Virus record (IMG/VR): IMGVR_UViG_2861079508_000001
Direction: 5' to 3' (one strand)
DNA from: a virus
Lineage: Duplodnaviria; Heunggongvirae; Uroviricota; Caudoviricetes
DNA length: 64,000 nucleotides
Below are positions 2,217 to 41,586 of this stretch, in pieces (position 1 is the first letter of the stretch; each line of letters starts with the position of its first letter). A program made the position numbers and the translations under genes. Under the pieces are notes generated by a model. The model had not been told where the DNA came from and ran no database searches. It was given only the letters and a program-made list of their open reading frames with translations.

Positions 2217-2449
2217 GTTGGCTTCCCTTTATTTATATTTATCGCAGGTATTAGTTAATCAAAACACGAGCAGTGCCACAATAATTAAATGGCGTACTAT
2301 TTCTTATGGTTATTAGTTTCCTAGTAACTTTACCGACCATAAACTAAATCAACAAAGCTGACATATTAACTAAATTTAAGTACCATTTTTCGCACACTTG
2401 ACACTTGCCGCGTCTAAACTGTTCATCCTATATCAACAGAACAAAAAAT

Positions 2450-3595
2450 ATGAAATACATAAAATCTTCATCGTTGCTGGCATTAACTTTGCTTTTTAGC
2501 TCTGGATTCGTTAACGCAGACAATAAACAAACGCTGATAGAAGCCGCTACCGCAGGGGATACCGCAGCACAAAGTGAGTTAGGGACAAATTATTTTGATG
2601 GTATCAATGGTTTTGATAAGGATGTAGTTGAGGCCAAGAAGTGGATTGATCTCGCTGCAGAAAAGGGAGACAAAGTAGCATATTATGCACTTGGGGTTAT
2701 GTACACATTTGGCGAGGGTGTAGATAAAGACTTAAATAAAGCAGTTGAGTACTACAAACTTGCGGGAGATGCTCGTGAAGGTAGAGCCTATAACAATCTT
2801 GGTGCTATTTATCAAAAGGGGATGCTTGGTAAAGTAGATCATGCGCTCGCCATTAAATACTTCAAACTAGCCTCTGATGCCGGGTATGTTAAAGCTAGCT
2901 ACCTTCTTGGTGCGTATTACCAATATGGTAAAGGTGTACAAAAGAGTTATAAAAAAGCTTTTACTTATTACAAAAAAGCGGCGGATCAAGGTAGTTCAGA
3001 TGGCATGTTCGCATTAGGCACCTTATACGATGACGGTTTAGGTGTTAAACGCAACGATGCCGAAGCAATTAAGTGGTATAAAAAAGCTGCTGAACTCGGA
3101 AACGCCGATGCCATGACAAATCTTGGCATTATGTATGAGTATGGTGAAGGGGTTAAAAAAGACTATAAAAAAGCAGCTGAGCTTTATCAGGCTGCTTGTG
3201 ATAAAGAAGATAAAAATGGCTGTGATTACATTGCAGAACTGAAAGAAAGCGGCAAATATCGAGCGCCGGCTTCCAAAGCCAAAACAAAATCCGCCACCCA
3301 GCGACTTATTGCTAAATCCATTGATAAGGGCGTTAACGCTACATTTACCTGGCAGGGTGATGATGCTACCTTCACCGCTAATGATGGCAAAGTTGACTGC
3401 ACCTTCCTGAAGGATTTTTCAGAGAAAGGAGGCAATCTGGCTACCTCGTTTGTTTGCACCGATAACGTTCAAATCATACTGAAGCAATTCAGAGATACCA
3501 AGAATGCCTACCTCGCGGTAATGACTGACAACTTCAACACAGAAGTTAAATCATTTTCGGTCAATGTGTACGTGACTAATACTGGTTCAAACTAA
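2450..3595 (+). CDS. secreted Sel1-like repeat (TPR-like) protein
   Basis: Start moved to internal ATG giving signal peptide MKYIKSSSLLALTLLFSSGFVNA; at least 6 tandem ~36-aa repeats with the Sel1 pattern (A..YY..A..QG...A...LG.MY..G.GV.KD...A..WYKKAA). Confidence 0.65.
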   Translation: MKYIKSSSLLALTLLFSSGFVNADNKQTLIEAATAGDTAAQSELGTNYFDGINGFDKDVVEAKKWIDLAAEKGDKVAYYALGVMYTFGEGVDKDLNKAVEYYKLAGDAREGRAYNNLGAIYQKGMLGKVDHALAIKYFKLASDAGYVKASYLLGAYYQYGKGVQKSYKKAFTYYKKAADQGSSDGMFALGTLYDDGLGVKRNDAEAIKWYKKAAELGNADAMTNLGIMYEYGEGVKKDYKKAAELYQAACDKEDKNGCDYIAELKESGKYRAPASKAKTKSATQRLIAKSIDKGVNATFTWQGDDATFTANDGKVDCTFLKDFSEKGGNLATSFVCTDNVQIILKQFRDTKNAYLAVMTDNFNTEVKSFSVNVYVTNTGSN

Positions 3596-4768
3596 TGCTG
3601 CTATGCCTTTTACCTTGCTTAAAAGTTCAAGCTGTCGTGAGTAAGGTTTTGCGCAATAGTAGGCTTTGATAATCTGCCCCGGGGTCGCATCGCCGGGGTC
3701 GAGTCCTTCCTCGCCCAAACATGCAATTTTCACATTAAGACCGATACTGGTCAGTCGCCTGGCTGCGGCCATAGTGTTTCGTATAGCTTGCTTTTCACTA
3801 TCCCACATCATGATCACATTACGTAATCCACGCGCCTTGAGCGTCAGGAACGCGCCCAACTGATCTTCTGCATCCTGAGTGGTGTTACCAGATAGATGCA
3901 TCCCGAACGTTCCTATTGGTTCCACGTAATCGCGTAATGTTTCTTCGTCAAAAATAGCTCGTTTGACCCCCATAACATCGAACGCCCCCTCACAGACAAC
4001 TACAGTCTGTTTGCCGACTGCATTGTGGCCGTTGTAGAGAAACTTACCTGAAGCTGGAAGCTGCATAGGAAAGAGGTAGCGGCGTTCTGCTGTACCGGTA
4101 ATGTCTCGTCCTTGAAATGTCTTCATTACCCCATCCAGATCGTAAACCGGTATCAGTATTCGCATATCGAAAATCTGTCCTTTAACCTGATCTGTATACG
4201 GATCTACATAAGCGTGCTTGCCTTCGACGCAGTATCGTAGGTCAAAATACTTTGCCATTTCAGGCGATATATTTCGTTCAACCAGATAGTCTGGAAGATG
4301 GCCATCTATAGGAAGATCGTAATGACGAGGGAGTGCAACTGGTCCCTCTAACTCGACTGTGCTTGCAAGCACTATCTCTTCTTTCTTTGGTGCCCACCCC
4401 TGGGAAAGAAGAGCGTTCTGCACATATTCCTCGAACTGTCGTCGTGATTTACCGCTGTAGTGCTTGAGGAAGACCAGCTTATTGAACTGAATCTCTTCGG
4501 GATGATCACCAGCGAAGCATTTACCGACGCCACTGGTCAGATTGAAATATACCTTCCAGTTGGAGCTGCCGCATACCGGACACTCCTTGATATTCACTTC
4601 ACGACCGCGAGTACTCACGCCTCCACGTCGATAAACGATACCTTCAGTATCCAACCATTGTTCAAAATCTAATTCGGTAATTAGCTCTTTCAGCTCGCTC
4701 ACGATAATTCCACTTTTAACAGGCAATATTGTGACCAACCTAAATGTTGATATAACATAAAGGCTCAT
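3587..4768 (-). CDS. DNA primase (zinc-ribbon + TOPRIM)
   Basis: CPVCGSS...C zinc-binding motif followed by TOPRIM-like VVVCEGAFD and MMWDSE acidic motifs; start uncertain (track start is GTG inside a hairpin; first ATG used here). Confidence 0.55.
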   Translation of the reverse strand: MSLYVISTFRLVTILPVKSGIIVSELKELITELDFEQWLDTEGIVYRRGGVSTRGREVNIKECPVCGSSNWKVYFNLTSGVGKCFAGDHPEEIQFNKLVFLKHYSGKSRRQFEEYVQNALLSQGWAPKKEEIVLASTVELEGPVALPRHYDLPIDGHLPDYLVERNISPEMAKYFDLRYCVEGKHAYVDPYTDQVKGQIFDMRILIPVYDLDGVMKTFQGRDITGTAERRYLFPMQLPASGKFLYNGHNAVGKQTVVVCEGAFDVMGVKRAIFDEETLRDYVEPIGTFGMHLSGNTTQDAEDQLGAFLTLKARGLRNVIMMWDSEKQAIRNTMAAARRLTSIGLNVKIACLGEEGLDPGDATPGQIIKAYYCAKPYSRQLELLSKVKGIAALV

Positions 4769-4849
4769 GTGTTTTTCTTTTGTGGTTTGGCAAAAGAAAA
4801 GTTGTTTCACCAATGAATCAAGCGTGGAGGTGTTCTCCACGCTTATTTT

Positions 4850-6190
4850 TTAGGTAACGTCTAAGATTCGCTCAATGAAGCGCATTTGTTCGAGGTTTTG
4901 TTTAACGCGAATGCTGATCCCTCCCTGCTGGTTACGCGAACCAGCAAAGTAGAGACGAGCCTCTCCTTTCGCTTCTTCTTCTTCGGTTTTGTTGATCGTT
5001 ATTACCAGGTCAGCAATACGTACTTTTTCGATGTTGTCGGCAGCGTGCATCATTGTGGCAACTTCTGACGCGCCACCTTCACGGTTTGTTTGCGACGCCG
5101 TGATACCAGCAACGTTATGCTTGTCATAAAGAGCACGTAAATCGGTGTAGATACTACGAATGTTGGCGCGATCATCACGAAGGTCATAACTGGCACGCAT
5201 CAAATCTGCGTAGTCGACAACAACCATGTCAGGCACCATGCCATTGGCTTTCATACTGTTAAGCATACGGTCCAGATCTGCCGGTGACATACTTCCTGAC
5301 GGACGCTCAACAACCCACAAACTACCAATCCCCTTCGTGGCTCCCAACTCTGCCAACTTGCGATGAACTTCATCGCGCCGTTCCACCAGCTTGGACATTT
5401 CCGTCTCCGACAATCTTGCATCAAAACGGTCGGACAAAATGGTGGTGTGAACCTCCAGCGAGAGATACAGAACATTGTAGCCAGCAAGCGTAGCGTTTAT
5501 GGAAAACTCACCCATTGCGGTCGATTTACCGGATTTAGCAAAACCCATGAAGAGCACCATTTCGCGCTTTGCCCAGCCTTTTTGGTACAGCAATCTATCA
5601 AGCAGAGGGAGTCCAGTTGTAATGCTGTTTGGCACATACTCCTCTGAAGCCTCATATTCACGCGCTTTCAATCGCTCACTTGCGGAGGTGTAGTAGTCAT
5701 AGATTCCGGTCGCTTCGTTCGAGCCTATCTGCTGAACCTTGGCCATGATTGCCATCGCCCCCTGAAAGTCGCCCTTCTCTTTCAGTTCAGCAGCTTTAAT
5801 CAGAGCATCATCAAACGCTACACTTTTTGCGAATGTGGATACCTGGTCAACCATGTACGAGGTATCAGACAATTTTTCTGCAAGGATGCGCTTAAACGCA
5901 GCAACAACATCCGGGAAGAGTTCCTCACGGATGGTCTTATCGCGTTTCGCACGCTTAAGCATATCCAGAATCGCAGATGAAGAAGGCGCGCTCTTGTACA
6001 TACGGTAATAGCCCGAAACCATATTAACCAATATGGCATTGGCCGCATTGGCAAATTGGCTAGGCACAACCAGATCTCCCGCACGAGTAAGAAACTCGTG
6101 ATCACGACAAAAATATGCCGTCAGTCTGTTCTGGAAATCTTCATCAAACTCTTCGGACAGCCCGCGTCCTGTATGGCAAAGTTCGGTCAT
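4850..6190 (-). CDS. DnaB-family replicative DNA helicase
   Basis: RecA-like core with Walker A GFAKSGKST and Walker B-like MVVVDYADLM; 446 aa; immediately upstream of primase. Confidence 0.75.
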   Translation of the reverse strand: MTELCHTGRGLSEEFDEDFQNRLTAYFCRDHEFLTRAGDLVVPSQFANAANAILVNMVSGYYRMYKSAPSSSAILDMLKRAKRDKTIREELFPDVVAAFKRILAEKLSDTSYMVDQVSTFAKSVAFDDALIKAAELKEKGDFQGAMAIMAKVQQIGSNEATGIYDYYTSASERLKAREYEASEEYVPNSITTGLPLLDRLLYQKGWAKREMVLFMGFAKSGKSTAMGEFSINATLAGYNVLYLSLEVHTTILSDRFDARLSETEMSKLVERRDEVHRKLAELGATKGIGSLWVVERPSGSMSPADLDRMLNSMKANGMVPDMVVVDYADLMRASYDLRDDRANIRSIYTDLRALYDKHNVAGITASQTNREGGASEVATMMHAADNIEKVRIADLVITINKTEEEEAKGEARLYFAGSRNQQGGISIRVKQNLEQMRFIERILDVT

Positions 6191-6209
6191 GTGCTTTCCT
6201 TTGTTTTTT

Positions 6210-6225
6210 AAACAAATTGTTTTCT
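6210..6225. promoter_or_regulatory. motif 1 operator-like palindrome (AAACAAATTGTTTTCT)
   Basis: In the 43-bp gap upstream of the helicase gene start. Confidence 0.5.
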
Positions 6226-6233
6226 AGTATTAG

Positions 6234-6983
6234 TTAATTAGATAGGGGATCAATAAACCGCCGTGCTTCTTCCAGTTCTTCTGGAAAGTGGGCGGAAATA
6301 AGGCGCTCTGGAACGATTTCCATTAGCCAGATAGCGGAGAAAATTGCGCGTATGCGCTTGCTGCGGGGGATGGTGCGTAAACGCTCCAGAATCCACTCAA
6401 AATAGCTTTCCTGGATCGGGTTGAACTGCATGTCTCCCATATGCTTAAAGCTAACTAGAGAGTCATCCAGACGGGTTGTTGCGCGTCTGGCTAATTTCTC
6501 TTCGAATATCTCAACCAGCTCTGGCTGCCATAAATGCTGTGGGCGCGGCAGCTTGTCCCACAGCCGTCGTGCAGCTGCGGAAAGAACGGTGGAGATAAAG
6601 TAGTCGTATGAGCAGCAATAGCGGTCAGCAAACTGGCGTGCTTTCCATAGAGACGTTTTATTGGCAGTCGACAACTCCTGATAAGGCAGGCGTTTTAACC
6701 CGGTGGTGAACGGAGCTGTTTCAAAGTGTTCGCGACCGTGCGTCAGCATGATATTTGAGTACTGACGTTTGTATGCCTCCGTAAAAAGACAGGTGGCCAT
6801 GAGAGGATGCATGTCGCGGTAATCAAACCACTTCGTCTCGAAGAGTTCAGCCTCGTCTTTACAGCGCGACAAACCAATGTTTTCAGCGACCCACTTGTCC
6901 ATAACAGCGGTATTCCACTCTGTCATGAAGTCGTACTGGTCGTTGTCGATGGTATCGAAAAAGATTTGGCTCATGTGGCTCAC
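6234..6983 (-). CDS. hypothetical protein
   Basis: 249-aa ORF; no family recognised; motif-2 element just upstream. Confidence 0.45.
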   Translation of the reverse strand: MSHMSQIFFDTIDNDQYDFMTEWNTAVMDKWVAENIGLSRCKDEAELFETKWFDYRDMHPLMATCLFTEAYKRQYSNIMLTHGREHFETAPFTTGLKRLPYQELSTANKTSLWKARQFADRYCCSYDYFISTVLSAAARRLWDKLPRPQHLWQPELVEIFEEKLARRATTRLDDSLVSFKHMGDMQFNPIQESYFEWILERLRTIPRSKRIRAIFSAIWLMEIVPERLISAHFPEELEEARRFIDPLSN

Positions 6984-6985
6984 CT

Positions 6986-7010
6986 GGTAGGTAGTTACTT
7001 ACTTATCACA
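6986..7010 (-). promoter_or_regulatory. motif 2 element
   Basis: GGTAGGTAGTTACTTACTTATCACA immediately upstream of gene 6234..6983. Confidence 0.45.
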
Positions 7011-7090
7011 ATGAGCGGATGATAGCGACTGGTGGCAGTTTTTGGAAGTGGAAACGGAAGGGAGTTGTTCTGGTGGTGTCTTTTAAAAGA

Positions 7091-7145
7091 CCTGCTTCCG
7101 TATATATTTAATAAGTTACTTATTATTTATATATACAGAAGCAGG
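7091..7145. repeat. 55-bp near-perfect palindrome, copy 1
   Basis: CCTGCTTCCGTATATATTTAATAAGTTACTTATTATTTATATATACAGAAGCAGG; identical copy at 41241-41295; centre AATAAGTTACTTATT is itself palindromic and motif-2-like. Confidence 0.6.
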
Positions 7146-7256
7146 CATAACTTGTCGTCTTAGACGCCCAGAAGCTCTACACTTTGAGCCTGTTAAATTG
7201 ATTAAAAACTTATGTGTAAAATAGAACGCATTAGTCAGTAGCAAAGAGATGCAATA

Positions 7257-8024
7257 ATGGACGATTTATCGGTATACGCGAGATCATTGGATAAGGCTAA
7301 ATACTATGTTTACTGTCTCTATGATACAGAAGACAAGATGAAAAGACCGTTTTACATAGGAAAAGGCAAATCGACTCGTTGTCTCGATCACATCAAGTAT
7401 CCCGATGACTCTCCCAAATCCATGCGGATCAAAGAACTTTTGGCTAATAAAAAATTAGGCATAGATATACTTCGTCATGGTATGGATGAAACCACAGCCA
7501 AACTTGTTGAGGCGACATGCATCGACCTTATGGGGGTCGGAGAGCTTACGAATAAGGTACGAGGAAGTGGTTCCATGATGGGCAGAATATCACTGGACGC
7601 CTACCATCACTTAGTGCTGCAAGAGGAAACTGAAATTGCTCCTGAGCACGCCGGTCTTGCCTTCCTGCTAAACAGCACCTACAAGTCAGGAATGTCCGCT
7701 CTGGCATTATATGAGGCTACGCGTGGCGTATGGGCAAAGGTTCCAAGAGACGAGAATCTCAAATATGCCTACGCTACATATGGTGGGCTGATAATGGAAG
7801 TTTATCAGATTGAATGCTGGGTCAAAGCCGGTTCTCAGCAGTACTTTACAAGGGATATAGCTCTTGGCCCCGACACAAAACGTTATGAATTTGTTGGCAG
7901 AATAGCCGATGAGCATATTAGAAAACTGTATGTAGGCAAATTAATCAAGAAGCCACCAAGCTACGGTAGCCCTTTTGTGAAGGTTGGGGTGGTTAGGACT
8001 GAACATAGTGTTAGCGCGGCATAA
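7257..8024 (+). CDS. GIY-YIG family nuclease (possible homing endonuclease)
   Basis: N-terminal VYCLYD-x9-YIGKG-x5-R...H matches the GIY-x(9-11)-YIG motif; gene is inverted relative to all neighbours and preceded by a large non-coding region. Confidence 0.5.
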   Translation: MDDLSVYARSLDKAKYYVYCLYDTEDKMKRPFYIGKGKSTRCLDHIKYPDDSPKSMRIKELLANKKLGIDILRHGMDETTAKLVEATCIDLMGVGELTNKVRGSGSMMGRISLDAYHHLVLQEETEIAPEHAGLAFLLNSTYKSGMSALALYEATRGVWAKVPRDENLKYAYATYGGLIMEVYQIECWVKAGSQQYFTRDIALGPDTKRYEFVGRIADEHIRKLYVGKLIKKPPSYGSPFVKVGVVRTEHSVSAA

Positions 8025-8076
8025 AGCTGACACTGTAGTTATGCATTGGCGCAATGTACGCGCCAATGCATGATTT

Positions 8077-8436
8077 TTAACCTTTCTTCATCAACTCTCG
8101 TTTGATTTCATCGGTACGCATCGTGACATCGGCAGCGGTGATCGCCTCATTCAATTTCACGATGTCCTCGATTTCCTGCGGTGACTTCTCTGCCAGATGG
8201 AAAATGGCTGCTCGAATCACGTCAGAACGAGTGAACTTCTCGAAGCGAGGGATGAACTTCATCATCTCCAGCAGTTCGAAGTATTCGTCCTCCAGTGACA
8301 TTGTGCGGCTTTTAATTTTCTCTTTGCCACGAGTCGGGCGTCCCTGTGGTCTGACTGGTTGGCGCAAAGGAGTTGTGTTCTTAGCCGGTGCATCAGGCTC
8401 TTTGCGCTTTGCTAGGTCACCCATTTTCATGGACAT
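8077..8436 (-). CDS. small partition partner protein (ParG/RHH-like), putative
   Basis: 119-aa protein with basic N-terminal tail and a C-terminal segment (FTRSDVIRAAIFHL) compatible with ribbon-helix-helix; directly downstream of ParA with start/stop overlap at 8436. Confidence 0.4.
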   Translation of the reverse strand: MSMKMGDLAKRKEPDAPAKNTTPLRQPVRPQGRPTRGKEKIKSRTMSLEDEYFELLEMMKFIPRFEKFTRSDVIRAAIFHLAEKSPQEIEDIVKLNEAITAADVTMRTDEIKRELMKKG

Positions 8437-9104
8437 TATTCTTCTTCCTCCAGACTCAACAGATAATCTACAAATTCTTCAAACTCGGCTTCCGCCTTTT
8501 TGTCGCGCTCGCTACCGGTCATTTCAAAGATAGAACGACCAGACTCTTCCGCATCATCATAGACGTTGCGGTTATATAGATTGACTGGCGCAGACTCGAT
8601 GCCAAACGTCTCAACAATCTCTTTAGCCGCCAGAATGCGAGACACTTGTGATGGCAAAGCCGGGCACTGGTTCATGACCGCGCGGACCTTCACTTTATCG
8701 TTTACATTACGAACATTGTCGATAATAGGATCGATGTCACGCAGAGATTTCAAATCACGACGCTTAGGACGAAGCGGGATAATGATAACGTCGGCCATCA
8801 GCATCGCTTGTCGCTGAATTTCGGAGTCAAAGCCACCAGCATCTACCACTACATACTCAGCTCTACCCTGAAGCGATTTTAGGTGCTTAATGATGTCATC
8901 CTGAACGTATGCAAAAGGAATCAGCTCAAGGTCTTCGTTCTGTCGACGGTCTTCACACCAGCTCGTTGTCGTGCGCTGAATATCTATATCGGTGATATAA
9001 ACCTTCTTCTTCTTTTTGACTTTCAGGCAAACGGCAATTTGCTGGGCAACGGTGGATTTGCCAGGCCCGCCCTTTGTGCCGCCAACCACAAAGATCTTGG
9101 TCAT
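8436..9104 (-). CDS. ParA/MinD-family partition ATPase
   Basis: Deviant Walker A GGTKGGPGKST at N-terminus; 222 aa. Confidence 0.7.
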   Translation of the reverse strand: MTKIFVVGGTKGGPGKSTVAQQIAVCLKVKKKKKVYITDIDIQRTTTSWCEDRRQNEDLELIPFAYVQDDIIKHLKSLQGRAEYVVVDAGGFDSEIQRQAMLMADVIIIPLRPKRRDLKSLRDIDPIIDNVRNVNDKVKVRAVMNQCPALPSQVSRILAAKEIVETFGIESAPVNLYNRNVYDDAEESGRSIFEMTGSERDKKAEAEFEEFVDYLLSLEEEE

Positions 9105-9138
9105 TGGAGAGTTCCCTTTGCGTATATAATTATCGTCT

Positions 9139-9155
9139 GAAACAACTTGTTTTCT
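9139..9155. promoter_or_regulatory. motif 1 operator-like palindrome (GAAACAACTTGTTTTCT)
   Basis: Upstream of parA, next to TATATAATTATCG. Confidence 0.5.
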
Positions 9156-9243
9156 TATATGTGATATAGCCTAAATGCCTACGGCTGTGGTGTAAAGGTT
9201 AAATGGTAGGTGCTGCCTTAGAATTTTTAGGCGAGAATCAATG

Positions 9244-9276
9244 GCTGTTAACAAAAAAGGCGACCAAAGTCGCCTG
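9244..9276 (-). terminator. rho-independent terminator after gene 9281..10033
   Basis: Minus-sense AGGCGAC-TTTG-GTCGCCT followed by TTTTTTGTT. Confidence 0.55.
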
Positions 9277-9280
9277 ATTT

Positions 9281-10033
9281 TTAATCTTTTAGGTATAAAC
9301 CTACTGGAGTTCTTGTTTTGCGGGAGATGATAAGTACGATAAATTTCTGAACGTTAACTTGCACTTTGTTTGGGAGCCAAGAGCTTAACTCTGCATCAAG
9401 CAACAATCCTCTGTTCCACGGCAAAAATCCGGTTTCTTTCCCCATCCCGTACTCGCCTAACACATCCTCGAACGTTTCTGTTTTGGCATTGTATATACGC
9501 ACATCGCCGGTTCGCATGAGAGGCCCTGCCCAGATCTTAGCACCAGGAATGGTTTGTGTATCGTCGCAGACTAAATGCTCATACCAATGAAGAAGAAAGA
9601 GATAGGTACGGTGACACAATCCTCGCTGACGACGCTCTCTGACAGTTTCGACACCGGCTACCTGGTAACATTCGATCTCATTACCGTCTTCAACAAAACT
9701 ATATTCACGCAGAGCTATCCTACCAGCGATCGTATTTTTGTTTTCGTCCAGAAGCCCGGACTGGAGCACCTCTTTGATAATCTCTTCTTCAGGGGCATCT
9801 TCATCCGCTCGATCTAAGATGAATTCGCTCAGGTCGCCTTGGTCGCGCGCACCTACAAGTTCCATAGAGACATACAGGCAAATGTCATCTTCTGGTTCAA
9901 TGATTTCAATTTCTGAGATTTTATAGAGGGAGGCTTCATTGATAAGAAAGCCAAAACGAACAACACGAGTCTCCCCTTTATGAGGAAACTCGCTTAGATC
10001 TTTTGAATATGCGCTATCTAGTGTAGGAGCCAT
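9281..10033 (-). CDS. hypothetical protein
   Basis: 250-aa ORF followed on the minus strand by a hairpin plus T-run. Confidence 0.45.
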   Translation of the reverse strand: MAPTLDSAYSKDLSEFPHKGETRVVRFGFLINEASLYKISEIEIIEPEDDICLYVSMELVGARDQGDLSEFILDRADEDAPEEEIIKEVLQSGLLDENKNTIAGRIALREYSFVEDGNEIECYQVAGVETVRERRQRGLCHRTYLFLLHWYEHLVCDDTQTIPGAKIWAGPLMRTGDVRIYNAKTETFEDVLGEYGMGKETGFLPWNRGLLLDAELSSWLPNKVQVNVQKFIVLIISRKTRTPVGLYLKD

Positions 10034-10401
10034 TTTGTAGCAGAATCATCAGCCTTAACCGTGCTGACAATGCTACCATGATTGCGTAAGAAGCGGCGAA
10101 TAGAATGTTCAATAACCTCCGAAAAAGCCTCGATAAAACGAGACAGCTCAGGGTACTGTTTAGCTGGCTTGACTACAAAACGAACACGACCATTCAGGTA
10201 AATTGCTTCAGCTAATGGCTTCACGCTTGCACCAGCGCGCTCAACATCGTCTTTGAAGGTAACGATGAAGCGTGAGTCTTCCGGTTCAATAGCGTCATTA
10301 TTGAGCTTACGTACTTCAAGCTTGTGCTGATTCAGCACATGAGTCTCGATAATACTCGTGCAATCGCGAATAGTTTGTATAGAACGTTTCTCGTTCAGCA
10401 T
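10018..10401 (-). CDS. hypothetical protein
   Basis: 127-aa ORF overlapping downstream gene start; no motifs recognised. Confidence 0.45.
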   Translation of the reverse strand: MLNEKRSIQTIRDCTSIIETHVLNQHKLEVRKLNNDAIEPEDSRFIVTFKDDVERAGASVKPLAEAIYLNGRVRFVVKPAKQYPELSRFIEAFSEVIEHSIRRFLRNHGSIVSTVKADDSATKWLLH

Positions 10402-10625
10402 GTGTCCACCTTAGCCGTTAACACAAGTGTCATTGCGGCACCCCTCTCGGGGTTGAAGGCTACGAGGATGCGTAGCCTGTATGTGCCCACTTACGTGGAT
10501 GCCTAATAAATCTACATCAAATTACTAAATGATTCAACATGAGCTTGAGTGAACAGGCGTGTATATGAGTGAAGATGCCATCTTTAGGATAAAAGGTAAA
10601 CTGAGACCACTCATCAATCATCGAC

Positions 10626-10862
10626 TCAGTTCAGGTGCCCCCACTCACACAGCCTTTCACCTATCGTATTGTGGATAAGCAACTGTCGCTCCGTTTCCTC
10701 AGTCATAAAATCCTCTCTACTCACATAAATAGGATTTGCAGCATCGCAGAATAGCACGCCTGGAGCCTGCGTCTTAATCACGCACCCATTTATCAAACAG
10801 CTCGCGATGAACACCAGAGGCATCTTTTTGCCGCACTTCATTAACCGTTTCATTTTTGACAT
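10626..10862 (-). CDS. candidate o-spanin (small outer-membrane lipoprotein), overlapped with i-spanin gene
   Basis: Internal start gives lipoprotein signal MSKMKRLMKCGKKMPLVFIAS|C (lipobox IASC); begins inside the upstream i-spanin ORF in another frame, as in Rz/Rz1-type pairs; start choice ambiguous. Confidence 0.3.
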   Translation of the reverse strand: MSKMKRLMKCGKKMPLVFIASCLINGCVIKTQAPGVLFCDAANPIYVSREDFMTEETERQLLIHNTIGERLCEWGHLN

Positions 10863-11025
10863 CCACTGTGCTTTGAAGTCGTTTTCTGTCTTCCTGTTTT
10901 GCCTTCTCTTCCATTGCTCGTCGCGCCGCATTTCCGCCCATCGTGTAAGCGCCGACAAGAACGAAAAGAACGGCAGCCAGCGTAATCAAAGCAACTTTTA
11001 GCTTTGTCATCAGGCTGCCTAGCAT
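10774..11025 (-). CDS. candidate i-spanin (N-terminal TM + periplasmic coiled coil)
   Basis: 83 aa with hydrophobic segment LKVALITLAAVLFVLVGAYT followed by charged helical region; located in lysis cluster. Confidence 0.45.
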   Translation of the reverse strand: MLGSLMTKLKVALITLAAVLFVLVGAYTMGGNAARRAMEEKAKQEDRKRLQSTVDVKNETVNEVRQKDASGVHRELFDKWVRD

Positions 11026-11026
11026 A

Positions 11027-11719
11027 TTAGACCATCCCTTTCTGGTGTTTTCTTACCTGCGACCAGGCAATGAATCCTGCCACAACAATAGTGGCAATAC
11101 CGAAGATGATGCGTACTGTATCCCCGCTAGAGATATGACCTTGTGCTTTATCCATAGCAGCGGAAACCTGCGGCATAACATCGGCAAGCTGCGCCAGACC
11201 AATACCTGCTGTGACAGTTGCGCCTGCGGTTTCTTTAGTTACAGGAACAGCCTTCACGGTTTTCACCGGCTTAACGACGCCGGCTCGACGCAGACCTTCC
11301 TCAATAACTTCTGCCGCATACCAGGTGTTCAGCGTTTTTAGTGGACCTCGACCATTCTCGTGGCGAATGATTGCCTCAACCAAAGGTCGAAGGATGTCGT
11401 AATCATGCAGATCGATGATCATGTCTGCGGTTACACCAACGGCTTTAGACACCTCATTAATGTAGGCGTCAGTGTTGTTTTCATTCGGCGGTGCCCAACG
11501 TTCAATAACTTCACGAATGGTATCGATACTTGAGCCGTCTTTTGCGCGACGTTTGTCGTGGTAGGTAATTAGAGTCACCGCCAGCGCACGAATCCCCCAA
11601 ACAGGGTCTTTAAACGTGCAAAAGCGCGGTTCGTCTGGATTCGCAACCAGACCTTGCCACGGTGATCCTTTATCAAGATTACCGGGGTTATTATTACGAA
11701 TGCCTCTCGGAGTCTTCAT
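11027..11719 (-). CDS. lysis-cluster protein with C-terminal membrane anchor (possible cell-wall hydrolase; family uncertain)
   Basis: Start set at second ATG preceded by AGGAGA; contains GIRNNNPGNL motif and C-terminal hydrophobic helix IIFGIATIVVAGFIAW; sits between holin-like and spanin-like genes. Confidence 0.4.
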   Translation of the reverse strand: MKTPRGIRNNNPGNLDKGSPWQGLVANPDEPRFCTFKDPVWGIRALAVTLITYHDKRRAKDGSSIDTIREVIERWAPPNENNTDAYINEVSKAVGVTADMIIDLHDYDILRPLVEAIIRHENGRGPLKTLNTWYAAEVIEEGLRRAGVVKPVKTVKAVPVTKETAGATVTAGIGLAQLADVMPQVSAAMDKAQGHISSGDTVRIIFGIATIVVAGFIAWSQVRKHQKGMV

Positions 11720-11732
11720 CCTTGATCTCCTG

Positions 11733-12068
11733 TTATTGCAGTCCATTTTTTACGCCATACGCGGCTAACCCCAAAAGCAGTGCAGTAATAATGAACGACG
11801 TTATTTTAGAAACAATGCCGCCAAAGAACCCACTGGAGATGGAATCTAACCGGTTAAGGAGTTTGTCCAGATTGGAGTGTTGAATACTATGTTGCGCCGG
11901 GGTCATATCACCAAAGTAGGTTTTCAGCTGATCATTGACCTCCTGGCCAATTTCTTCACGTAGCTCTTTACCTAATTTGCCAACAACCTCCCGAGCAACG
12001 ATCGCGGCAATACGCTCAACTTGCTCTGTTGTAACGCTCGCCATCTCGTTCGACATGTTTTCCTCCAT
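11733..12068 (-). CDS. holin-like small membrane protein
   Basis: 111 aa, C-terminal TM segment ITSFIITALLLGLAAYGV; first gene of lysis cluster. Confidence 0.4.
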   Translation of the reverse strand: MEENMSNEMASVTTEQVERIAAIVAREVVGKLGKELREEIGQEVNDQLKTYFGDMTPAQHSIQHSNLDKLLNRLDSISSGFFGGIVSKITSFIITALLLGLAAYGVKNGLQ

Positions 12069-12117
12069 GAAAAGTCAAATCGGGATGGCGGATTTATATC
12101 ACATTTCACCCTTTTAT

Positions 12118-12143
12118 TGTAGGTGTGTACCTACCTATCATTC
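12118..12143 (-). promoter_or_regulatory. motif 2 element
   Basis: GTGTACCTACCTATCATTC upstream of holin-like gene. Confidence 0.45.
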
Positions 12144-12371
12144 AGCATTGCAACGGACTGATGAGAAAGCACCTACTCCTACCCATCGCCAGTTATAGAT
12201 ACTACCCGCTTTGTATAAGGTATAGTCGTTCACTTTTTTAACAGCATATATGGGTATGACTGTCTCCTGTCCACCAATGATAGCCTCACCGTAACATATA
12301 GGTGTCGGCAATTTCTGGCAGCCAGTAAGAGAGAGAACAACAGCTATTATTAGAAATAATCTTTTCATCAT
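12138..12371 (-). CDS. small lipoprotein (candidate superinfection-exclusion/receptor-blocking lipoprotein)
   Basis: 77 aa with signal peptide and lipobox LTGC; located immediately downstream of tail-fibre-associated genes, the position occupied by Llp/Cor-type lipoproteins in other siphoviruses. Confidence 0.45.
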   Translation of the reverse strand: MMKRLFLIIAVVLSLTGCQKLPTPICYGEAIIGGQETVIPIYAVKKVNDYTLYKAGSIYNWRWVGVGAFSSVRCNAE

Positions 12372-12378
12372 TTACTCA

Positions 12379-12987
12379 TCAGTTATACAGATTTCTATTT
12401 ATTACCGGTACTCTGCCATTTACGCTAAAACTATGGCCGCCATTAAGTTGGTTTACGAATATCGAGCTAACAGTATTTCCATATGCCGCATATCCATAAA
12501 CCATTGTCATGGCTCCGCCCGGTACTGGAACAGCGAACACATTCGCATATGTTGGGATTATCGCTGGTGGGTAATCAAAAACATGCCCTCCAGAGCTGTT
12601 CCACTCCGTATTATTAAGAAAGGTAAATGAAAGTGGGATATTTGCCGTATTATAGATTTCCTCCCCTTGTGCATTGAAAAAACTCATGCCCCAAGTTTCT
12701 TTTTTGGCTATACCTTTCGAAAATACGTATATCGTGGCACTAGAGTCGCTACCCTGACCTCCGAAACTGTAAATCACCTGGTTGTTACGCACTATTCTGT
12801 TGGCTATTAATGAAACAGCTTTCGAATAGGCAACAAAAATCATCGGTGAACGATCTGGAGATATTTGGGTGTTAAACTCTGTCCCGCCGGACAAAGAAAC
12901 AACCTGCTTTCTCTGAAAAACGATAGGAGACAAAGAAGGAGACATCCAGACCTTCCCGTCAGATCGATATATCTTGCTTCCGTACAT
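12379..12987 (-). CDS. hypothetical tail-fibre-associated protein
   Basis: 202 aa; start overlaps stop of upstream gene (TAATG), suggesting co-translation with 12987..13241. Confidence 0.45.
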   Translation of the reverse strand: MYGSKIYRSDGKVWMSPSLSPIVFQRKQVVSLSGGTEFNTQISPDRSPMIFVAYSKAVSLIANRIVRNNQVIYSFGGQGSDSSATIYVFSKGIAKKETWGMSFFNAQGEEIYNTANIPLSFTFLNNTEWNSSGGHVFDYPPAIIPTYANVFAVPVPGGAMTMVYGYAAYGNTVSSIFVNQLNGGHSFSVNGRVPVINRNLYN

Positions 12988-13241
12988 TATTTTTGAAAAA
13001 CCAATATGTTTAAATTACCACTAGCTCCAGACCACGAAATGGTATTTCCAGAAACCGTAAGACTTGTGTATTTTCCATTGGTTACGTCCATTATGTAATA
13101 GTCGATTCCCAATCCCGCCTCAACCTCATATGTTCTACTTCCTGAACCAGAGGGAGTAAAATAATCGAGGTAATAAACAGGGGCCAACGCATCGACCATC
13201 TCCTGTCTTGATGGCGACCAAACCTGTGCACCATAGCTCAT
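12987..13241 (-). CDS. hypothetical tail-fibre-associated protein
   Basis: 84 aa; immediately downstream of long tail fibre gene. Confidence 0.4.
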   Translation of the reverse strand: MSYGAQVWSPSRQEMVDALAPVYYLDYFTPSGSGSRTYEVEAGLGIDYYIMDVTNGKYTSLTVSGNTISWSGASGNLNILVFQK

Positions 13242-13301
13242 AAATATATCCTTATACTTTTAAGCAGGGGCTGGTTTAGTTCCAGCCCCGATTGAAGTTG
13301 T

Positions 13302-16300
13302 TTATTCTTTAGGTGAATTTAACTTCGTTTCAAGCTCCTCAACCCTTTTGGTCAATTGCTGAATATGATGAATGAGTGGTACAACCAAACGCTCATACAT
13401 CACTCCTTCAGCGACCATACCATTTGAGGAAATATCTTCTGGAGAATCATTATTTGTTGGTTCACGCCAATGGACATATTGCGGGGCAATCTCACCAACC
13501 TCTTCAGCAATAAGGCCGTAATACCCCCAATCCTTTCGGTCACCTCGACAAATTGAACGATACCAAACAGGTCTTAATGACAAAAGTTCATCAGCATATC
13601 GATCTTGTAATGTTTCAATATCCTTTTTATAGCGCCTTGAAGAGGTTGAACGCCAAACTGTATTGATACCTGGGTTTGGATCAATGTACATATTGGCACC
13701 GCTAGTAGTTGTGCCAATATCCCATATAGCAAACCCTCCACTACCGCCTGATTTGACAACCAGTGTTTCAGCAATAATATCCAGGTTGCCACTATAGCCT
13801 GTCAGTGATGATCTGCTTGCATAGGAACTTAGAAGGTTTGTTACCTCTGTTTTCGTGTAAGCATTAAGGTTAGCCGCAGTCAAAGTTATATCGGCAGAGC
13901 CATCAAACGCCACACCAGCAATTTTCCTTGCTGTCTGCAATTTTGTGGCGGTTGCGGCATTACCAGTAGTGTTCTGATTACCAGTTGTATTCACACCAGG
14001 GATTGAATCCTTAGCGGTATATACCTGCGCCCACGCTGACCATGCCGCACCTGTGTTATCTCTTCGTGAGCGAATGAAAACTGGCGCATGTGCACCGCTC
14101 GTACCACTCCAGCCAATAAGCAACTCTCCCTCACCAGCAGCACTCGCACCTTTCATGTGCAATACGTTGCCATACATGGTCGGGTAGCTATTGTTGTACG
14201 CCTCGTACATTTGAATGCCAGCAGTGCCTTGAGTAGAGCCGCTTAACGCCGTAACTCGGCCACGAGATACCAATGTATTAATGTTGATATCGCCTGAGCC
14301 ATCAAACTTAACACCATTGATGTTTCTCGCTGTTTGCAACTTCGTAGCTGTTGAAGCATTACCGTTCAAACTACCATTTACGCCACCAGTCACATTTAGT
14401 CCATTACCAATTGATACAGCACCGCTGGTATTATTAATTGTAATAGGTCGCAAACCGTTCCATGAACCTAATGTGTCTCCTGATGCTGTTAGCATGAAAT
14501 ATGTGTTCGATCCATCATTACGGATAAAGAACCCAAAGCTACCGTAAGCAATGCGGAAACCATTTGCATATTTTGAAATGATCTCGCCAGAAGATGTCAA
14601 ACCTCCAGATAATGTACCACCGGTAAGAGGTAATGCACCGACATCAGAGGCTGTTGGTTTGTTTTTCGTGTTATATACTCTTCGCCATCCCGGAGAATAA
14701 TCTGTGCCATTAAATACATAGATAAACTCCGCATTAGTGAGAGCACCAGAGACACTCGTCGTTGTGGCCGTTGTTATACGGATCGTATAATTGTTTGAGC
14801 TACTACCGTTATTAAATACCTCTATAACAGCTCCTGCCAATGGAATAACGCCACAACCAGTTTCACTATTTGGTATGGTTGCACTATTGGCATAGGCCCA
14901 CGCACATCGAGCAATCCATGACTTTGTGTTAAATGCTCCATTATTTTGCAATAACGTCACTAACTGTGCTGTTGTTATTGCTCCGCCATTACTTCCTGTA
15001 GTTAACCAACCAGTAGGAGATGCCGGGCAACCTATATTTGCTGGCGACAAGGAAATATTTGCCGAGCCGTCAAACGACACCCCATTGATAGTACGCGCAG
15101 TCTGCAACTTCGTAGCAGTAGCCGCGTTGCCCGTTGTATTCTGATTACCAGTCGTATTAACACCTGGCAAATTAATATTCGCAGTACCATCAAAGCTCAC
15201 GCCGCCGATAGTTCTTGCCGTCTGAAGTTTTGTAGCAGTTGCAGCATTACCAGTGGTGTTCTGATTACCCGTAGTATTTACACCTGGAAGGTTGATATTT
15301 GCAGAACCGTCGAAACCAACTCCACCGATAGATCTTGCCGTCTGCAATTTCGTTGCTGTACTTGCATTACCATTTAATGTTCCGGTGATCCCACCAGTAA
15401 CAGACAACGGACCTGAAACTGTTCCTCCGGTTGTTGGCAGTGCTCCAATATCTAACGGCGTCGGTTTCTGATGTGTGCTATACATCGTATAAACAACACC
15501 ATCGGTAACGCTGGAAGGCTTACTAGCTGAATATGTTGGCGATGTATAAATAGAAACTGTCGCATTTGCAGTACAATCCCAATGGATATTTACACGAGTC
15601 GCATAATTGCCAATCTCAACGTAAATATCATATGTATCGCCGGATGTGTTGATCCAGGCGAAATTCGTTAATCCGACAGCTGTACGCTTCCACAAAGCAC
15701 CTGTAATCCCTTTGGGGTTTCCATTGCCTGCTCGTAGAACCAGTTCTGAAATGCCTGCCTGATGTGGGGAGCCGACGTTGTAACCAGCGCCACCAATCAA
15801 TGCGATGTAAACGATGGAACTCGCTTGTGGCATGGTAACCGTAGCCAGTTTGAACCACCCTGCCCCGCCAGAGAAAGACATCGTTACTGAATTTAAAGTA
15901 CCAATATCTTTCGGCGTTAATGTGATATCCGCAGTCAGTGCTTTACCGTTAACTTTTCGGTTAGATGGCACCCTGCTATTCGCATTGTCATTGGCTGCTT
16001 TAACTGCTTTTGGCGTTGCGGCCAGCGATTCACTGGTGCTGTCGACAGCACTGCTAAGTTTCACAACACCTTTAGTTGTAAGGCTTGCGTCTTCCATCGC
16101 AACTGCACCGGCAATCTCTTCAGCACGATCAGCAGCAGCTTCCGCACGGGTCGCAGCGGATTCAGCAGCAGTTTTGCTCTGAGATGCTGCCGTCGCACTG
16201 CCTGCCGCCTCTGTTGCTTTCGTGGATGCCGTCGTGGCGCTGCCCTTCGCTGCTGACGCCTGTCTGGTCGCCTCATCTTTTGAAGCAGACGCAGATGATG

Positions 16301-40491: not shown

Positions 40492-41123
40492 TATTCGTCC
40501 TCCCCTTCACTTCCATCATCTGTCGCATCAAATTCGCTTAGAGCTTCTTCTTCCAACGTCTCAAGCAATTCGTCATCGATGATTTCAGGCTCGTCGTCTT
40601 CCTGACGTAATTTCGCCACCTGGGAAGGCGTAAGCTCACCAAATACCAGGTTCGGAATTTCTTCCTCGTCATTTTCCGCATGATCCATGCCCAATGCTTT
40701 GGACGAAACTTCAAAGCATTTTGCAAGGGTATTACTGGCTCTCTGTAAGCTCTTGAGAGAATCCTCAATCGCCCCTAAAGGCTTACCCTCACGTTTGGCC
40801 GTAGTGACTTCGACCATCACCATCTGCCCCAACGCATACGCCCAGCCGTCATAACGTGTACGACGTTCTTCTATCTTTTCCGCACGGGCTTTAGCGCGAA
40901 GCTCTGCGTCAGATTTAAGAGACTCACGAACCATCTTCCCAACAGAGTCCGCGCCTTTCTCTAATCCTCGCTTTTTGAAATGTCTGGAGAGTGTTTCACG
41001 ACGAATGCCGTACTCTTCCTCCAGCTTTGAGAGTGTATATTCGCCTGACGTCCATTTGGCTTCAGCTTCGGCCCACTCCGCTGGTGTCAGGCGAGTTTTT
41101 ACCTCGTCTTTTTCGACCGTCAT
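40491..41123 (-). CDS. terminase small subunit (putative)
   Basis: 210 aa with N-terminal HTH-like YTLSKLEEEYGIRRETLSRHFKKRG and acidic C-terminal tail; stop overlaps TerL start. Confidence 0.5.
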   Translation of the reverse strand: MTVEKDEVKTRLTPAEWAEAEAKWTSGEYTLSKLEEEYGIRRETLSRHFKKRGLEKGADSVGKMVRESLKSDAELRAKARAEKIEERRTRYDGWAYALGQMVMVEVTTAKREGKPLGAIEDSLKSLQRASNTLAKCFEVSSKALGMDHAENDEEEIPNLVFGELTPSQVAKLRQEDDEPEIIDDELLETLEEEALSEFDATDDGSEGEDE

Positions 41124-41240: not shown

Positions 41241-41295
41241 CCTGCTTCCGTATATATTTAATAAGTTACTTATTATTTATATATACAGAAGCAGG
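41241..41295. repeat. 55-bp near-perfect palindrome, copy 2
   Basis: Identical to 7091-7145; lies in the non-coding region just upstream of the small terminase gene. Confidence 0.6.
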
Positions 41296-41319: not shown

Positions 41320-41586
41320 TTACATCACCAGTAACTTCGCTTTGGCTCGACCTAAAGTGGTTAACCCAAGAGTTCGGCGGTGATAGCGATTGTCACTGCG
41401 TTGGCGCGTATGCCCTTTCTCCACAAGCCCCTTTTTTATCAGAGCGCGAATTGAGAACTGGATACTTTGCTTGGTTGTCTTGTACGGCAAAACTTCAAGC
41501 AATTCGTCCAGATCAAGTAGATAACCTCGCTCATAACCGAGATTGAGCGTTTTGATGATGTCCTTTTGTTTATCGGTTAACGTCAT
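41320..41586 (-). CDS. small winged-helix DNA-binding protein
   Basis: 88 aa; wHTH-like segment (QSIQFSIRALIKKGLVEK); adjacent to two operator-like motif-1 copies. Confidence 0.4.
   Translation of the reverse strand: MTLTDKQKDIIKTLNLGYERGYLLDLDELLEVLPYKTTKQSIQFSIRALIKKGLVEKGHTRQRSDNRYHRRTLGLTTLGRAKAKLLVM

What the first reader, a model, noticed from the sequence alone, without database searches (positions are those of the whole stretch)
7257..8024. Inverted GIY-YIG nuclease gene between replication and partition genes (probable homing endonuclease)
This is the only plus-strand gene in a 10-kb minus-strand block. It carries a clear GIY-x9-YIG motif and follows a 270-bp non-coding region containing one copy of the 55-bp palindrome, a classic signature of a mobile homing-endonuclease insertion.
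Basis: partly seen in the sequence, partly recalled or inferred. Interest (0 to 1): 0.35.

Follow-up and report, generated by a model that had tools for sequence, protein, structure and literature searches.

The report
Phage-plasmid defence nuclease in cargo slot
The gene is real, but it is most likely a restriction-type nuclease that cuts chemically modified DNA of invading phages (PD-T4-3/CMoRE family), carried as swappable cargo on an E. coli phage-plasmid, not a homing endonuclease; this kind of gene and its presence on these plasmids are already known.

Summary
ORF 7257..8024 (+, 255 aa) is the only plus-strand gene in the minus-strand block 3587..17459. It follows a 273-bp spacer holding a 55-bp palindrome (7091-7145). 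The motif is YVY(17-19)-x13-YIG(33-35), not a literal GIY-x9-YIG.

The window is an E. coli SSU5-like phage-plasmid. The protein matches the anti-phage system PD-T4-3 (= CMoRE, a modification-dependent type IV restriction endonuclease) over its full length: PADLOC 1.3e-23, PDB 9U7U profile E 4e-23, Foldseek E 5e-12. It keeps the GIYxY-YIG motif, Arg41, Glu85 and the C-terminal sensor domain. True phage homing endonucleases match only the ~100-residue catalytic core, weakly.

The gene sits in a hypervariable slot between the palindrome and the stop codon of the parB-position gene. At least eight slot states share those junctions: this gene, a near-empty allele, two divergent DUF2971 cassettes (one with three extra genes), two KAP-NTPase variants, and two unknowns, in either orientation. 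The palindrome belongs to the backbone and has a second copy at 41241.

About 40% of E. coli SSU5-like plasmids carry the cassette. Closer homologues are lone chromosomal genes in diverse bacteria.

Verdict: a defence cassette in a recombination hotspot. Homing is unlikely, and cassette mobility cannot separate the two readings. It is a divergent member of a known kind, of low to moderate interest.

The parts
7257..8024 (+). [quoted passage not shown]
   Evidence: ORF. PADLOC PD-T4-3 E 1.3e-23 over residues 11-231 against HMM positions 11-238 of 256. PDB 9U7U/9U75 E 2e-15 for the single sequence and 4e-23 for the profile. Foldseek top four hits are 9U75/9U7U/9U7Z, E 5e-12. RefSeq name: 'LEM-3-like GIY-YIG domain-containing protein'.
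7290..7532 (+). [quoted passage not shown]
   Evidence: Pfam PF22945. These residues are invariant in 37 homologues at 50-78% identity. They align with the CMoRE YVY / YVGKG / R / E positions. UvrC GIY-YIG domains are the next-best PDB folds.
7575..7991 (+). C-terminal domain (residues ~107-245), homologous to the CMoRE modification-sensing domain
   Evidence: The HMMER alignment to 9U7U continues to residue 230-232. The AF2 model has pLDDT mostly 85-95 here. Foldseek aligns the full length to CMoRE only. No Pfam family covers it.
7146..7256 (+). Cassette-specific AT-rich 5' leader; a promoter and RBS are presumed but not identified
   Evidence: Homology with all other slot alleles ends at 7145-7155. 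This segment travels with the ORF, staying 97-99% identical in backbones whose flanking genes are 83-85% identical. The consensus promoter scan found nothing.
8037..8078 (+). Cassette-borne hairpin (perfect 12-bp arms 8041-8052 / 8060-8071) followed by TTTTT (8074-8078): probable intrinsic terminator of the nuclease gene
   Evidence: Inverted repeat. RNA fold -25.1 kcal/mol, z = -5.8, followed by UUUUU. The consensus terminator scan did not report it. Other cargo cassettes each carry a different hairpin at this position.
7091..7145 (.). 55-bp imperfect palindrome; a backbone element that marks the left boundary of the variable slot
   Evidence: Present in every allele, including the near-empty one and SSU5, with sequences diverging directly after ...CAGAARCAGG. 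On the minus strand the RNA hairpin (-30.8 kcal/mol) is followed by UCUUUU.
8077..8436 (-). 119-aa gene in the parB position (phrog_5111, start overlapping the parA stop); its stop codon is the right boundary of the slot
   Evidence: Homology with all alleles resumes at 8073-8081.
8436..9104 (-). ParA-type partition ATPase
   Evidence: Pfam AAA_31/MipZ/CbiA/ParA; phrog_164, ParA-like.
6234..6983 (-). Conserved 249-aa backbone gene of unknown function (phrog_2500), left neighbour, next to the DnaB-like helicase and primase
41241..41295 (.). Second, identical copy of the 55-bp palindrome
   Evidence: The linear GenBank records of phages Cyrano and SSU5 end inside it, at window ~41258/41259.

Best explanation
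The gene encodes a single-protein anti-phage defence nuclease of the PD-T4-3/CMoRE family. Its C-terminal domain would recognise hypermodified bases in incoming phage DNA; 5-hydroxymethyl- or glucosyl-hydroxymethyl-cytosine of T-even phages is the demonstrated case for the family. Its N-terminal GIY-YIG domain would then cut that DNA, while the unmodified DNA of the host and of the phage-plasmid is spared. The gene is carried as a self-contained cassette (own leader, ORF, own terminator). The cassette occupies a hypervariable cargo slot of an E. coli SSU5-like phage-plasmid, between the palindrome that follows the par operon and the parB-position gene. The slot exchanges cassettes between related phage-plasmids, most likely by homologous recombination in the conserved flanks. 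Shown here: homology of both domains, conserved catalytic residues, slot polymorphism with fixed junctions, and cassette transfer across diverged backbones. Inferred: expression, defence activity, which modification is sensed, and the exchange mechanism.
For: Family assignment: PADLOC PD-T4-3 HMM E 1.3e-23 with ~89% HMM coverage. phmmer to CMoRE crystal structures 9U7U/9U75 gives E 2e-15 over residues 12-230. The family profile gives E 4.3e-23 over positions 10-232 of 247. The AF2 model (pLDDT 82.5) has the CMoRE structures as its four best PDB matches, with full-length alignments at E 5e-12 to 6e-11. UvrC GIY-YIG domains follow at E ~1e-2. Motif and residues: Y17-x-Y19 ... Y33IG, R41 and E85 are invariant in 37 homologues. 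They align with the CMoRE residues whose mutation abolishes defence and cleavage (PMC12923530). Function of the family: PD-T4-3 restricts T-even phages in its native host (10.1101/2024.12.20.629700). A 48%-identical homologue degrades T4 and Mu DNA but not unmodified T4-GT7 DNA (PMC12366544). Context: other states of the same slot include PADLOC candidate defence genes PDC-S31 (DUF2971) and PDC-S49 (KAP NTPase). A survey using DefenseFinder reports PD-T4-3 on SSU5-group phage-plasmids of E. coli and Shigella (10.1101/2025.09.12.675607), and this is the only such gene in the window. The family is large, with 3101 50%-identity clusters at E<=1e-3, mostly ~245-260 aa with the same two-domain span. 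The four homologues whose contexts were inspected are stand-alone chromosomal genes next to IS elements, integrase fragments and RelA/SpoT genes.
Against: Identity to the characterised CMoRE proteins is only ~26-30%, so specificity may differ. The acidic autoinhibitory loop of CMoRE (...EVAAVDDDELLNN...) is about 5 residues shorter here and keeps only two acidic residues (YPDDSPKS). No promoter was recognised. Whole-chain TM-scores to CMoRE are low (0.38-0.40). This is presumably because the low-confidence linker (residues 93-106) leaves the relative domain orientation arbitrary, but domain-wise superposition was not done. No experiment exists on this subfamily. The cassette being far more conserved than its flanks is also what homing would produce.
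Confidence: 0.8

Rival explanations
1. Free-standing GIY-YIG homing endonuclease. The enzyme cuts phage-plasmid alleles that lack it near the parB/palindrome junction, and is copied in by recombinational repair.
For: It is an intergenic, self-contained gene, here oriented against its neighbours. Presence is polymorphic among close relatives. The cassette is 97-99% identical in backbones whose flanking genes are 83-85% identical. Identity declines with distance (parB-position gene 92%, parA 85%), which resembles co-conversion tracts. Distant homologues in jumbo phages are annotated as homing nucleases.
Against: The full-length best match is a modification-dependent restriction enzyme. No NUMOD, IENR1 or HTH DNA-binding modules were found. 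Intron and homing enzymes match only the ~90-110-aa core at E 0.01-0.1. The same junctions serve at least seven other slot states, including non-nuclease cargos in both orientations, inside backbones at least 96.5% identical, so turnover does not need this enzyme. There is no clean empty target: the near-empty allele carries 34 unrelated bp. Close homologues are single chromosomal genes in diverse bacteria. In E. coli the cassette is found at one locus type only, apart from an IS-bounded fragment on an IncF plasmid.
Confidence: 0.07
2. A nuclease serving the phage-plasmid's own biology, for example structure-specific cleavage in replication or recombination (UvrC/Slx1-like), or exclusion of competing plasmids or phage-plasmids, rather than defence against modified phages.
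For: It lies between the replication and partition modules. The catalytic domain is UvrC-like, and an Slx1 structure appears among weak fold matches. The shortened acidic lid could relax the dependence on modification.
Against: It is absent from about 60% of E. coli relatives and from SSU5 itself, so it is not needed for replication or maintenance. The sensor domain is conserved with CMoRE. Homologues occur alone in chromosomes. In its native host, PD-T4-3 had no effect on vertical transmission of a test plasmid.
Confidence: 0.08
3. A silent or decaying passenger gene with no current function.
For: No recognisable sigma-70 promoter. Its GC content is slightly lower than that of its neighbours (44.7% against 47-50%).
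Against: The ORF is intact, with all catalytic residues invariant across homologues. The cassette is 95-100% identical wherever it occurs, in 106 E. coli genomes. It carries its own strong terminator.
Confidence: 0.03

Closest known systems
PD-T4-3 / CMoRE (E. coli ECOR68, APEC O1, O157:H7; PDB 9U7U, 9U75; Vassallo et al. 2022 as cited in PMC12923530; Liu et al. 2026, PMC12923530)
   Same: A single ~250-aa protein with an N-terminal GIY-YIG domain carrying the extra tyrosine (YxY...YIG). The catalytic Arg and Glu are conserved. The C-terminal domain is homologous along its length. It is the best sequence, profile and fold match.
   Different: Only ~26-30% identity. The acidic autoinhibitory loop is shorter and less acidic. 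It sits on a phage-plasmid rather than a chromosome. The tetramer interface and 5hmC contact could not be assessed. Specificity is untested.
PD-T4-3Capno (Capnocytophaga homologue; Rodriguez-Rodriguez et al. 2025, PMC12366544)
   Same: A divergent family member shown to be a modification-dependent nuclease. This supports transferring the function across low identity within the family.
   Different: It acts on both glucosyl-hmC (T4) and carbamoylmethyl-adenine (Mu) DNA.
Free-standing GIY-YIG homing endonucleases of phages (I-TevI, T4 Seg proteins)
   Same: The GIY-YIG catalytic fold. An intergenic, self-contained gene that is polymorphic among relatives.
   Different: The C-terminal domain is not a NUMOD, Zn-finger or HTH DNA-binding module. 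There is only weak, core-only structural similarity. The slot holds many unrelated cargos.
Accessory-gene (defence) hotspots of temperate phages and phage-plasmids, e.g. P2/P4 hotspots and the plastic loci of phage-plasmids (Pfeifer et al., PMC7969092; hotspot comparison from own knowledge)
   Same: Fixed junctions between conserved genes. There are many alternative cassettes, mostly single-gene. Several are known or candidate defence genes.
   Different: Here the left junction coincides with a 55-bp palindrome that has a second genomic copy. I did not find this particular slot described in the papers searched.

Membership tests
PD-T4-3 / CMoRE type IV restriction endonucleases | Single-gene system: a ~250-aa protein with an N-terminal GIY-YIG domain plus a C-terminal sensing domain | tested here: met
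   255 aa. The PADLOC HMM is covered at positions 11-238 of 256. Alignment to 9U7U spans residues 12-230 and profile positions 10-232. Foldseek gives full-length alignments to 9U75/9U7U at E 5e-12. The neighbouring genes are backbone genes, not partners.
PD-T4-3 / CMoRE type IV restriction endonucleases | 'GIYxY-YIG' motif with a third tyrosine | tested here: met
   Y17-V18-Y19 and Y33-I34-G35. All three tyrosines are invariant in 37 homologues. They align with WYVY...FYVGKG of CMoRE. The motif definition comes from PMC12923530.
PD-T4-3 / CMoRE type IV restriction endonucleases | Catalytic Arg and Glu of the GIY-YIG active site | tested here: met
   R41 and E85 are invariant and align with the Arg (GKGKGNR) and Glu (YEVEAALID) of CMoRE.
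PD-T4-3 / CMoRE type IV restriction endonucleases | 15-residue negatively charged autoinhibitory loop between helices 2 and 3 (present in 'most' members) | tested here: inconclusive
   A loop is present at the same place, but it is about 5 residues shorter and has two acidic residues (Y48-P-D-D-S-P-K-S) instead of DDDE. The paper does not make the loop obligatory.
PD-T4-3 / CMoRE type IV restriction endonucleases | Cleaves 5hmC/5ghmC (modified) DNA but not ordinary DNA; protects against T-even phages | not testable with these tools
   This needs plaque assays and in vitro cleavage. The 5hmC contact in CMoRE is a main-chain atom of Y127. The aligned position here is L121, by my own residue counting on the alignment, and that is uninformative.
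PD-T4-3 / CMoRE type IV restriction endonucleases | Tetrameric (dimer-of-dimers) assembly required for function | not tested
   No multimer prediction was run.
Free-standing GIY-YIG homing endonucleases (I-TevI / Seg type) | GIY-YIG catalytic domain | tested here: met
   Pfam PF22945. Weak, core-only fold matches to intron-associated endonucleases.
Free-standing GIY-YIG homing endonucleases (I-TevI / Seg type) | C-terminal modular DNA-binding region (NUMOD, IENR1, Zn finger, HTH) that targets a long specific site | tested here: not met
   No such Pfam domain was found even at E<=1. The C-terminal domain instead matches the CMoRE sensor domain.
Free-standing GIY-YIG homing endonucleases (I-TevI / Seg type) | Clean presence/absence polymorphism: the occupied allele equals the empty allele plus the endonuclease gene at one point | tested here: not met
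   The slot is a replacement site with at least eight states. The near-empty allele (NZ_CP113488) has 34 unrelated bp resembling the start of the SSU5 cassette.
Free-standing GIY-YIG homing endonucleases (I-TevI / Seg type) | Cleaves the endonuclease-free allele and is inherited preferentially in crosses | not testable with these tools
   The cassette is more conserved than its flanks. That is compatible with homing but equally with recombinational exchange under selection.

The most novel reading that the evidence does not exclude
This short-lid subfamily (~27-30% identical to CMoRE) may sense a different DNA modification, or a different phage range, than 5hmC/ghmC. In addition, the interval between the parB-position gene and the 55-bp palindrome may be a dedicated exchange site for single-gene defence cassettes in SSU5-like phage-plasmids. 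In that case the palindrome, which has a second copy at the ends of the linear SSU5 and Cyrano records and occurs flipped in one relative, would act as an active recombination or processing site rather than a passive homology patch or terminator.
Probability: 0.2. Interest if true: 0.5.

Novelty: new member of a known kind. Interest (0 to 1): 0.27.

Why it matters
It corrects a likely mis-annotation. RefSeq calls the protein only 'LEM-3-like GIY-YIG domain-containing protein' or 'hypothetical', and several phage records call distant relatives 'homing nuclease'. It shows that about 40% of E. coli SSU5-like phage-plasmids, about 2% of complete E. coli genomes, probably arm their host with a type IV restriction enzyme against T-even-like phages. 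That is relevant to phage therapy and to phage-versus-phage competition. It also defines a sharply bounded cargo slot next to the partition operon. Two unknown cargo genes there (phrog_22329, phrog_1353) are reasonable candidates for new defence genes. None of this is conceptually new: the family, its mechanism and its presence on SSU5-group phage-plasmids have been published.

Tried and rejected
- NCBIfam gave no hit.
- The consensus promoter and terminator scan found nothing in 6900-8500. The terminator was instead supported by folding, and no promoter could be assigned by eye.
- A search with an idealised perfect palindrome found nothing, because the real palindrome is imperfect. The real sequence found both copies.
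- PHROGs placed the protein only in an unannotated family (phrog_5356).
- Foldseek whole-chain TM-scores to CMoRE are low (0.38-0.40) despite E 5e-12. I attribute this to the arbitrary domain orientation across the low-confidence linker and did not use TM as evidence.
- Literature searches for a described SSU5 hotspot at this position, or for SSU5 cohesive ends, found nothing specific.
- I considered using 'cassette more conserved than flanks' to separate homing from recombination and rejected it, because both predict it. The argument rests on near-identical backbones (>=96.5%) carrying unrelated non-nuclease cargos at the same junctions.
- No paralogue of the gene exists elsewhere in the window.

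Full report
**1. What is in the sequence**

The ORF at 7257..8024 (+, 255 aa) exists as described. Between 3587 and 17459, every other gene supported by relatives' annotation is on the minus strand. These are the primase, DnaB-like helicase, a 249-aa unknown (phrog_2500), a 119-aa gene in the parB position, ParA, lysis genes and the tail fibre.

The 273-bp spacer upstream (6984-7256) contains a 55-bp imperfect palindrome at 7091-7145. It folds at -13.9 kcal/mol as DNA, z = -6. An identical second copy lies at 41241-41295, with none expected by chance.

A GIY-YIG domain is present (Pfam PF22945 above threshold). The motif is YVY(17-19)-x13-YIG(33-35), not a literal GIY-x9-YIG.

**2. What the element is**

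The region is 98.6-99.1% identical to Escherichia phages CMS-2020a and PhiR41_1, and 84% identical to Salmonella phage SSU5. It matches 730 PLSDB plasmids of Klebsiella, Escherichia, Enterobacter and Salmonella, nearly all non-mobilizable. The window is therefore an E. coli SSU5-like phage-plasmid.

**3. What the protein is**

The protein matches the defence system PD-T4-3 along its whole length:
- PADLOC gives E 1.3e-23, residues 11-231 against HMM positions 11-238 of 256.
- The only PDB sequence matches are 9U7U/9U7Z and 9U75/9U8D. E is 2e-15 with the single sequence (residues 12-230) and 4.3e-23 with a profile of 37 homologues.
[quoted passage not shown] Its N-terminal GIY-YIG domain cuts DNA containing 5hmC or glucosyl-5hmC, which is recognised by a C-terminal domain of novel fold (PMC12923530).

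Structure prediction agrees. An AlphaFold2 model (pLDDT 82.5) has those four entries as its best PDB matches, with full-length alignments at E 5e-12 to 6e-11. UvrC GIY-YIG domains follow at E ~1e-2. Whole-chain TM-scores are low (0.38-0.40). I attribute that to the flexible, low-confidence linker (residues 93-106), and domain-wise superposition was not done.

In the viral structure library, intron-associated and homing GIY-YIG enzymes match only about 90-110 residues, at E 0.01-0.1.

The family hallmark is present. The extra tyrosine (Y17-x-Y19), the YIG tyrosine (Y33), R41 and E85 are invariant among 37 homologues of 50-78% identity. They align with the CMoRE residues whose mutation abolishes defence and cleavage.

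One feature differs. The acidic lid loop that autoinhibits CMoRE is about five residues shorter here and keeps only two acidic residues.

Identity to CMoRE is about 26-30%, so this is a divergent subfamily. The wider family is large: 3101 50%-identity clusters at E<=1e-3, mostly 245-260 aa.

Functional evidence comes from other members of the family:
- PD-T4-3 restricts T-even phages in its native E. coli host.
- A Capnocytophaga homologue, 48% identical to PD-T4-3, degrades T4 and Mu DNA but not unmodified T4-GT7 DNA.

**4. The locus is a cargo slot, not an insertion site of this gene**

I compared the window with seven relatives. In every case homology stops at 7145-7155, immediately after the palindrome's last bases ...CAGAARCAGG. 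It resumes at 8073-8081, the stop codon of the parB-position gene. Between these junctions the relatives carry:

| Relative | Slot content |
|---|---|
| Cyrano / LF82 | A DUF2971 gene |
| SSU5 | A different DUF2971 gene plus three small genes |
| NZ_CP029421 and AP026520 | Two KAP-family P-loop NTPase variants |
| NZ_CP104844 | A 357-aa unknown (phrog_22329), plus strand |
| NZ_CP034066 | A 225-aa unknown (phrog_1353), plus strand |
| NZ_CP113488 | Only 34 bp, resembling the first bases of the SSU5 cassette |

The DUF2971 and KAP proteins hit PADLOC candidate defence families PDC-S31 and PDC-S49. These different states occur in backbones at least 96.5% identical to the window. Slot turnover is therefore fast and independent of the cargo type and its orientation.

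The cassette here is self-contained:
- a 111-bp AT-rich leader (7146-7256);
- the ORF;
- a strong hairpin followed by TTTTT (8037-8078; -25.1 kcal/mol, z = -5.8).

Other cassettes carry their own, different hairpins at the same place.

**5. Distribution and mobility**

In 5426 complete E. coli genomes, 263 carry the par module. Of these, 106 carry the cassette, about 40% of these plasmids and 2% of genomes. It is always on plasmids and is 95-100% identical.

In three plasmids the left-flanking gene is only 83-85% identical to the window. In two of them parA is also only 85% identical; in the third the right flank is 97.5-99% identical. In all three, the palindrome, leader, ORF and terminator are 96-99% identical. 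In the two fully diverged backbones the adjacent parB-position gene is intermediate, at 92%. The cassette has therefore been exchanged recently between diverged backbones.

This pattern is what homing would produce, but it is also what recombination in conserved flanks under selection would produce. It cannot decide between the two.

An IS-bounded fragment carrying the cassette sits on a conjugative IncF plasmid.

Closer homologues (50-78% identity) are single genes on chromosomes of Providencia, Shewanella and other bacteria. They lie next to IS elements, integrase fragments, RelA/SpoT-domain genes or housekeeping genes.

**6. Interpretation**

The best-supported reading (about 0.8) is a PD-T4-3/CMoRE-type, modification-dependent anti-phage nuclease carried as a cassette in a defence or cargo hotspot of the phage-plasmid.

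The homing-endonuclease reading (about 0.07) fails two tests. The protein lacks a homing-type DNA-binding module, and there is no clean empty allele. It is also unnecessary to explain the polymorphism. It is not formally excluded, because cleavage was not tested.

A role in the plasmid's own replication or maintenance is unlikely, because most relatives lack the gene.

A 2025 survey using DefenseFinder already lists PD-T4-3 on SSU5-group phage-plasmids of E. coli and Shigella. This is the only such gene in the window. I could not confirm from that paper that its hits are at this locus.

**7. The palindrome**

The palindrome is not a signature of the insertion. It is part of the backbone in all alleles and lies 34 bp beyond the parB-position stop codon in the near-empty allele. 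On the minus strand it forms a -30.8 kcal/mol RNA hairpin followed by UCUUUU. A terminator of the par operon is therefore a simple explanation for this copy. A centromere-like site downstream of the par genes is another.

Two observations remain unexplained:
- The second copy coincides with the ends of the linear GenBank records of SSU5 and Cyrano.
- In one relative the first copy is flipped.

**8. Verdict**

It is a new, divergent member of a known kind. Interest is low to moderate.

Noticed in passing
window 41241-41295 (and 7091-7145): The second identical copy of the 55-bp palindrome lies between two minus-strand ORFs (40491..41123 and 41320..41586). The linear GenBank records of phages Cyrano and SSU5 end at window ~41258/41259, inside this copy. 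It may therefore mark a packaging or terminus site, or simply the point where the records were opened. Its function is unresolved.
   Followed up: partly
L008 (AP026520.1) 1355-1411 vs window 7089-7145: In this relative the slot-boundary palindrome matches best in the inverted orientation: 94.7% on the opposite strand. The asymmetric centre is therefore flipped, which hints at recombination or inversion at the palindrome.
   Followed up: no
window 7146-8078 slot; L002, L003, L005, L006, L007, L008: Alternative cargos at the same junctions are DUF2971 (PADLOC candidate PDC-S31), KAP P-loop NTPases (PDC-S49), and two proteins of unknown function (357 aa, phrog_22329; 225 aa, phrog_1353). The two unknowns are candidate defence genes by position.
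   Followed up: partly
L016, L017 (NZ_CP090457, NZ_CP057094) vs window 6234-9104: These are mosaics. The palindrome, leader, ORF and terminator are 96-99% identical to the window, while the flanking genes are 83-85% identical and the adjacent parB-position gene is 92% identical. In L018 only the left flank is diverged.
   Followed up: yes
L019 (NZ_CP062843.1) 4001-5615: A fragment holding the 3' end of phrog_2500, the palindrome, the nuclease cassette and the parB-position gene sits between IS3-family elements on a 141-kb conjugative IncF plasmid. The defence gene has therefore escaped the phage-plasmid by IS-mediated capture.
   Followed up: partly
window ~9105-10600; L002 6279-7113; L005/L006 right ends: The region just upstream of parA looks like a second variable slot. 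The window has two minus-strand ORFs (9281..10033, phrog_3307; 10018..10401). Cyrano has a plus-strand antitoxin plus a KacT acetyltransferase toxin. Other relatives have a DUF1778 antitoxin gene.
   Followed up: no
phage records (e.g. Serratia phage Moabite NC_048792 6439-7125; Klebsiella phage N1M2; Pseudomonas phage OBP): Jumbo-phage proteins 25-36% identical to this protein are annotated 'G-I-Y Y-I-G endonuclease' or 'putative homing nuclease'. The Serratia and Pectobacterium jumbo-phage hits cover 85-88% of it; N1M2 covers 71% and OBP 52%. The long matches may be members of the same two-domain PD-T4-3-like family, so those annotations may be wrong.
   Followed up: no
window 2405..3595 (+): A 396-aa Sel1-repeat protein (six Sel1 repeats, E 7.6e-53), with a hydrophobic, signal-peptide-like N-terminal stretch by eye, is the nearest other plus-strand gene, next to the primase. 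It may be another accessory insertion.
   Followed up: no
window 13302..17459 (-): The 1385-aa tail-fibre ORF has a long Ala/Ser-rich low-complexity region and several repeats of the motif 'GVNTTGNQNTTGNAATATKLQTAR'.
   Followed up: no
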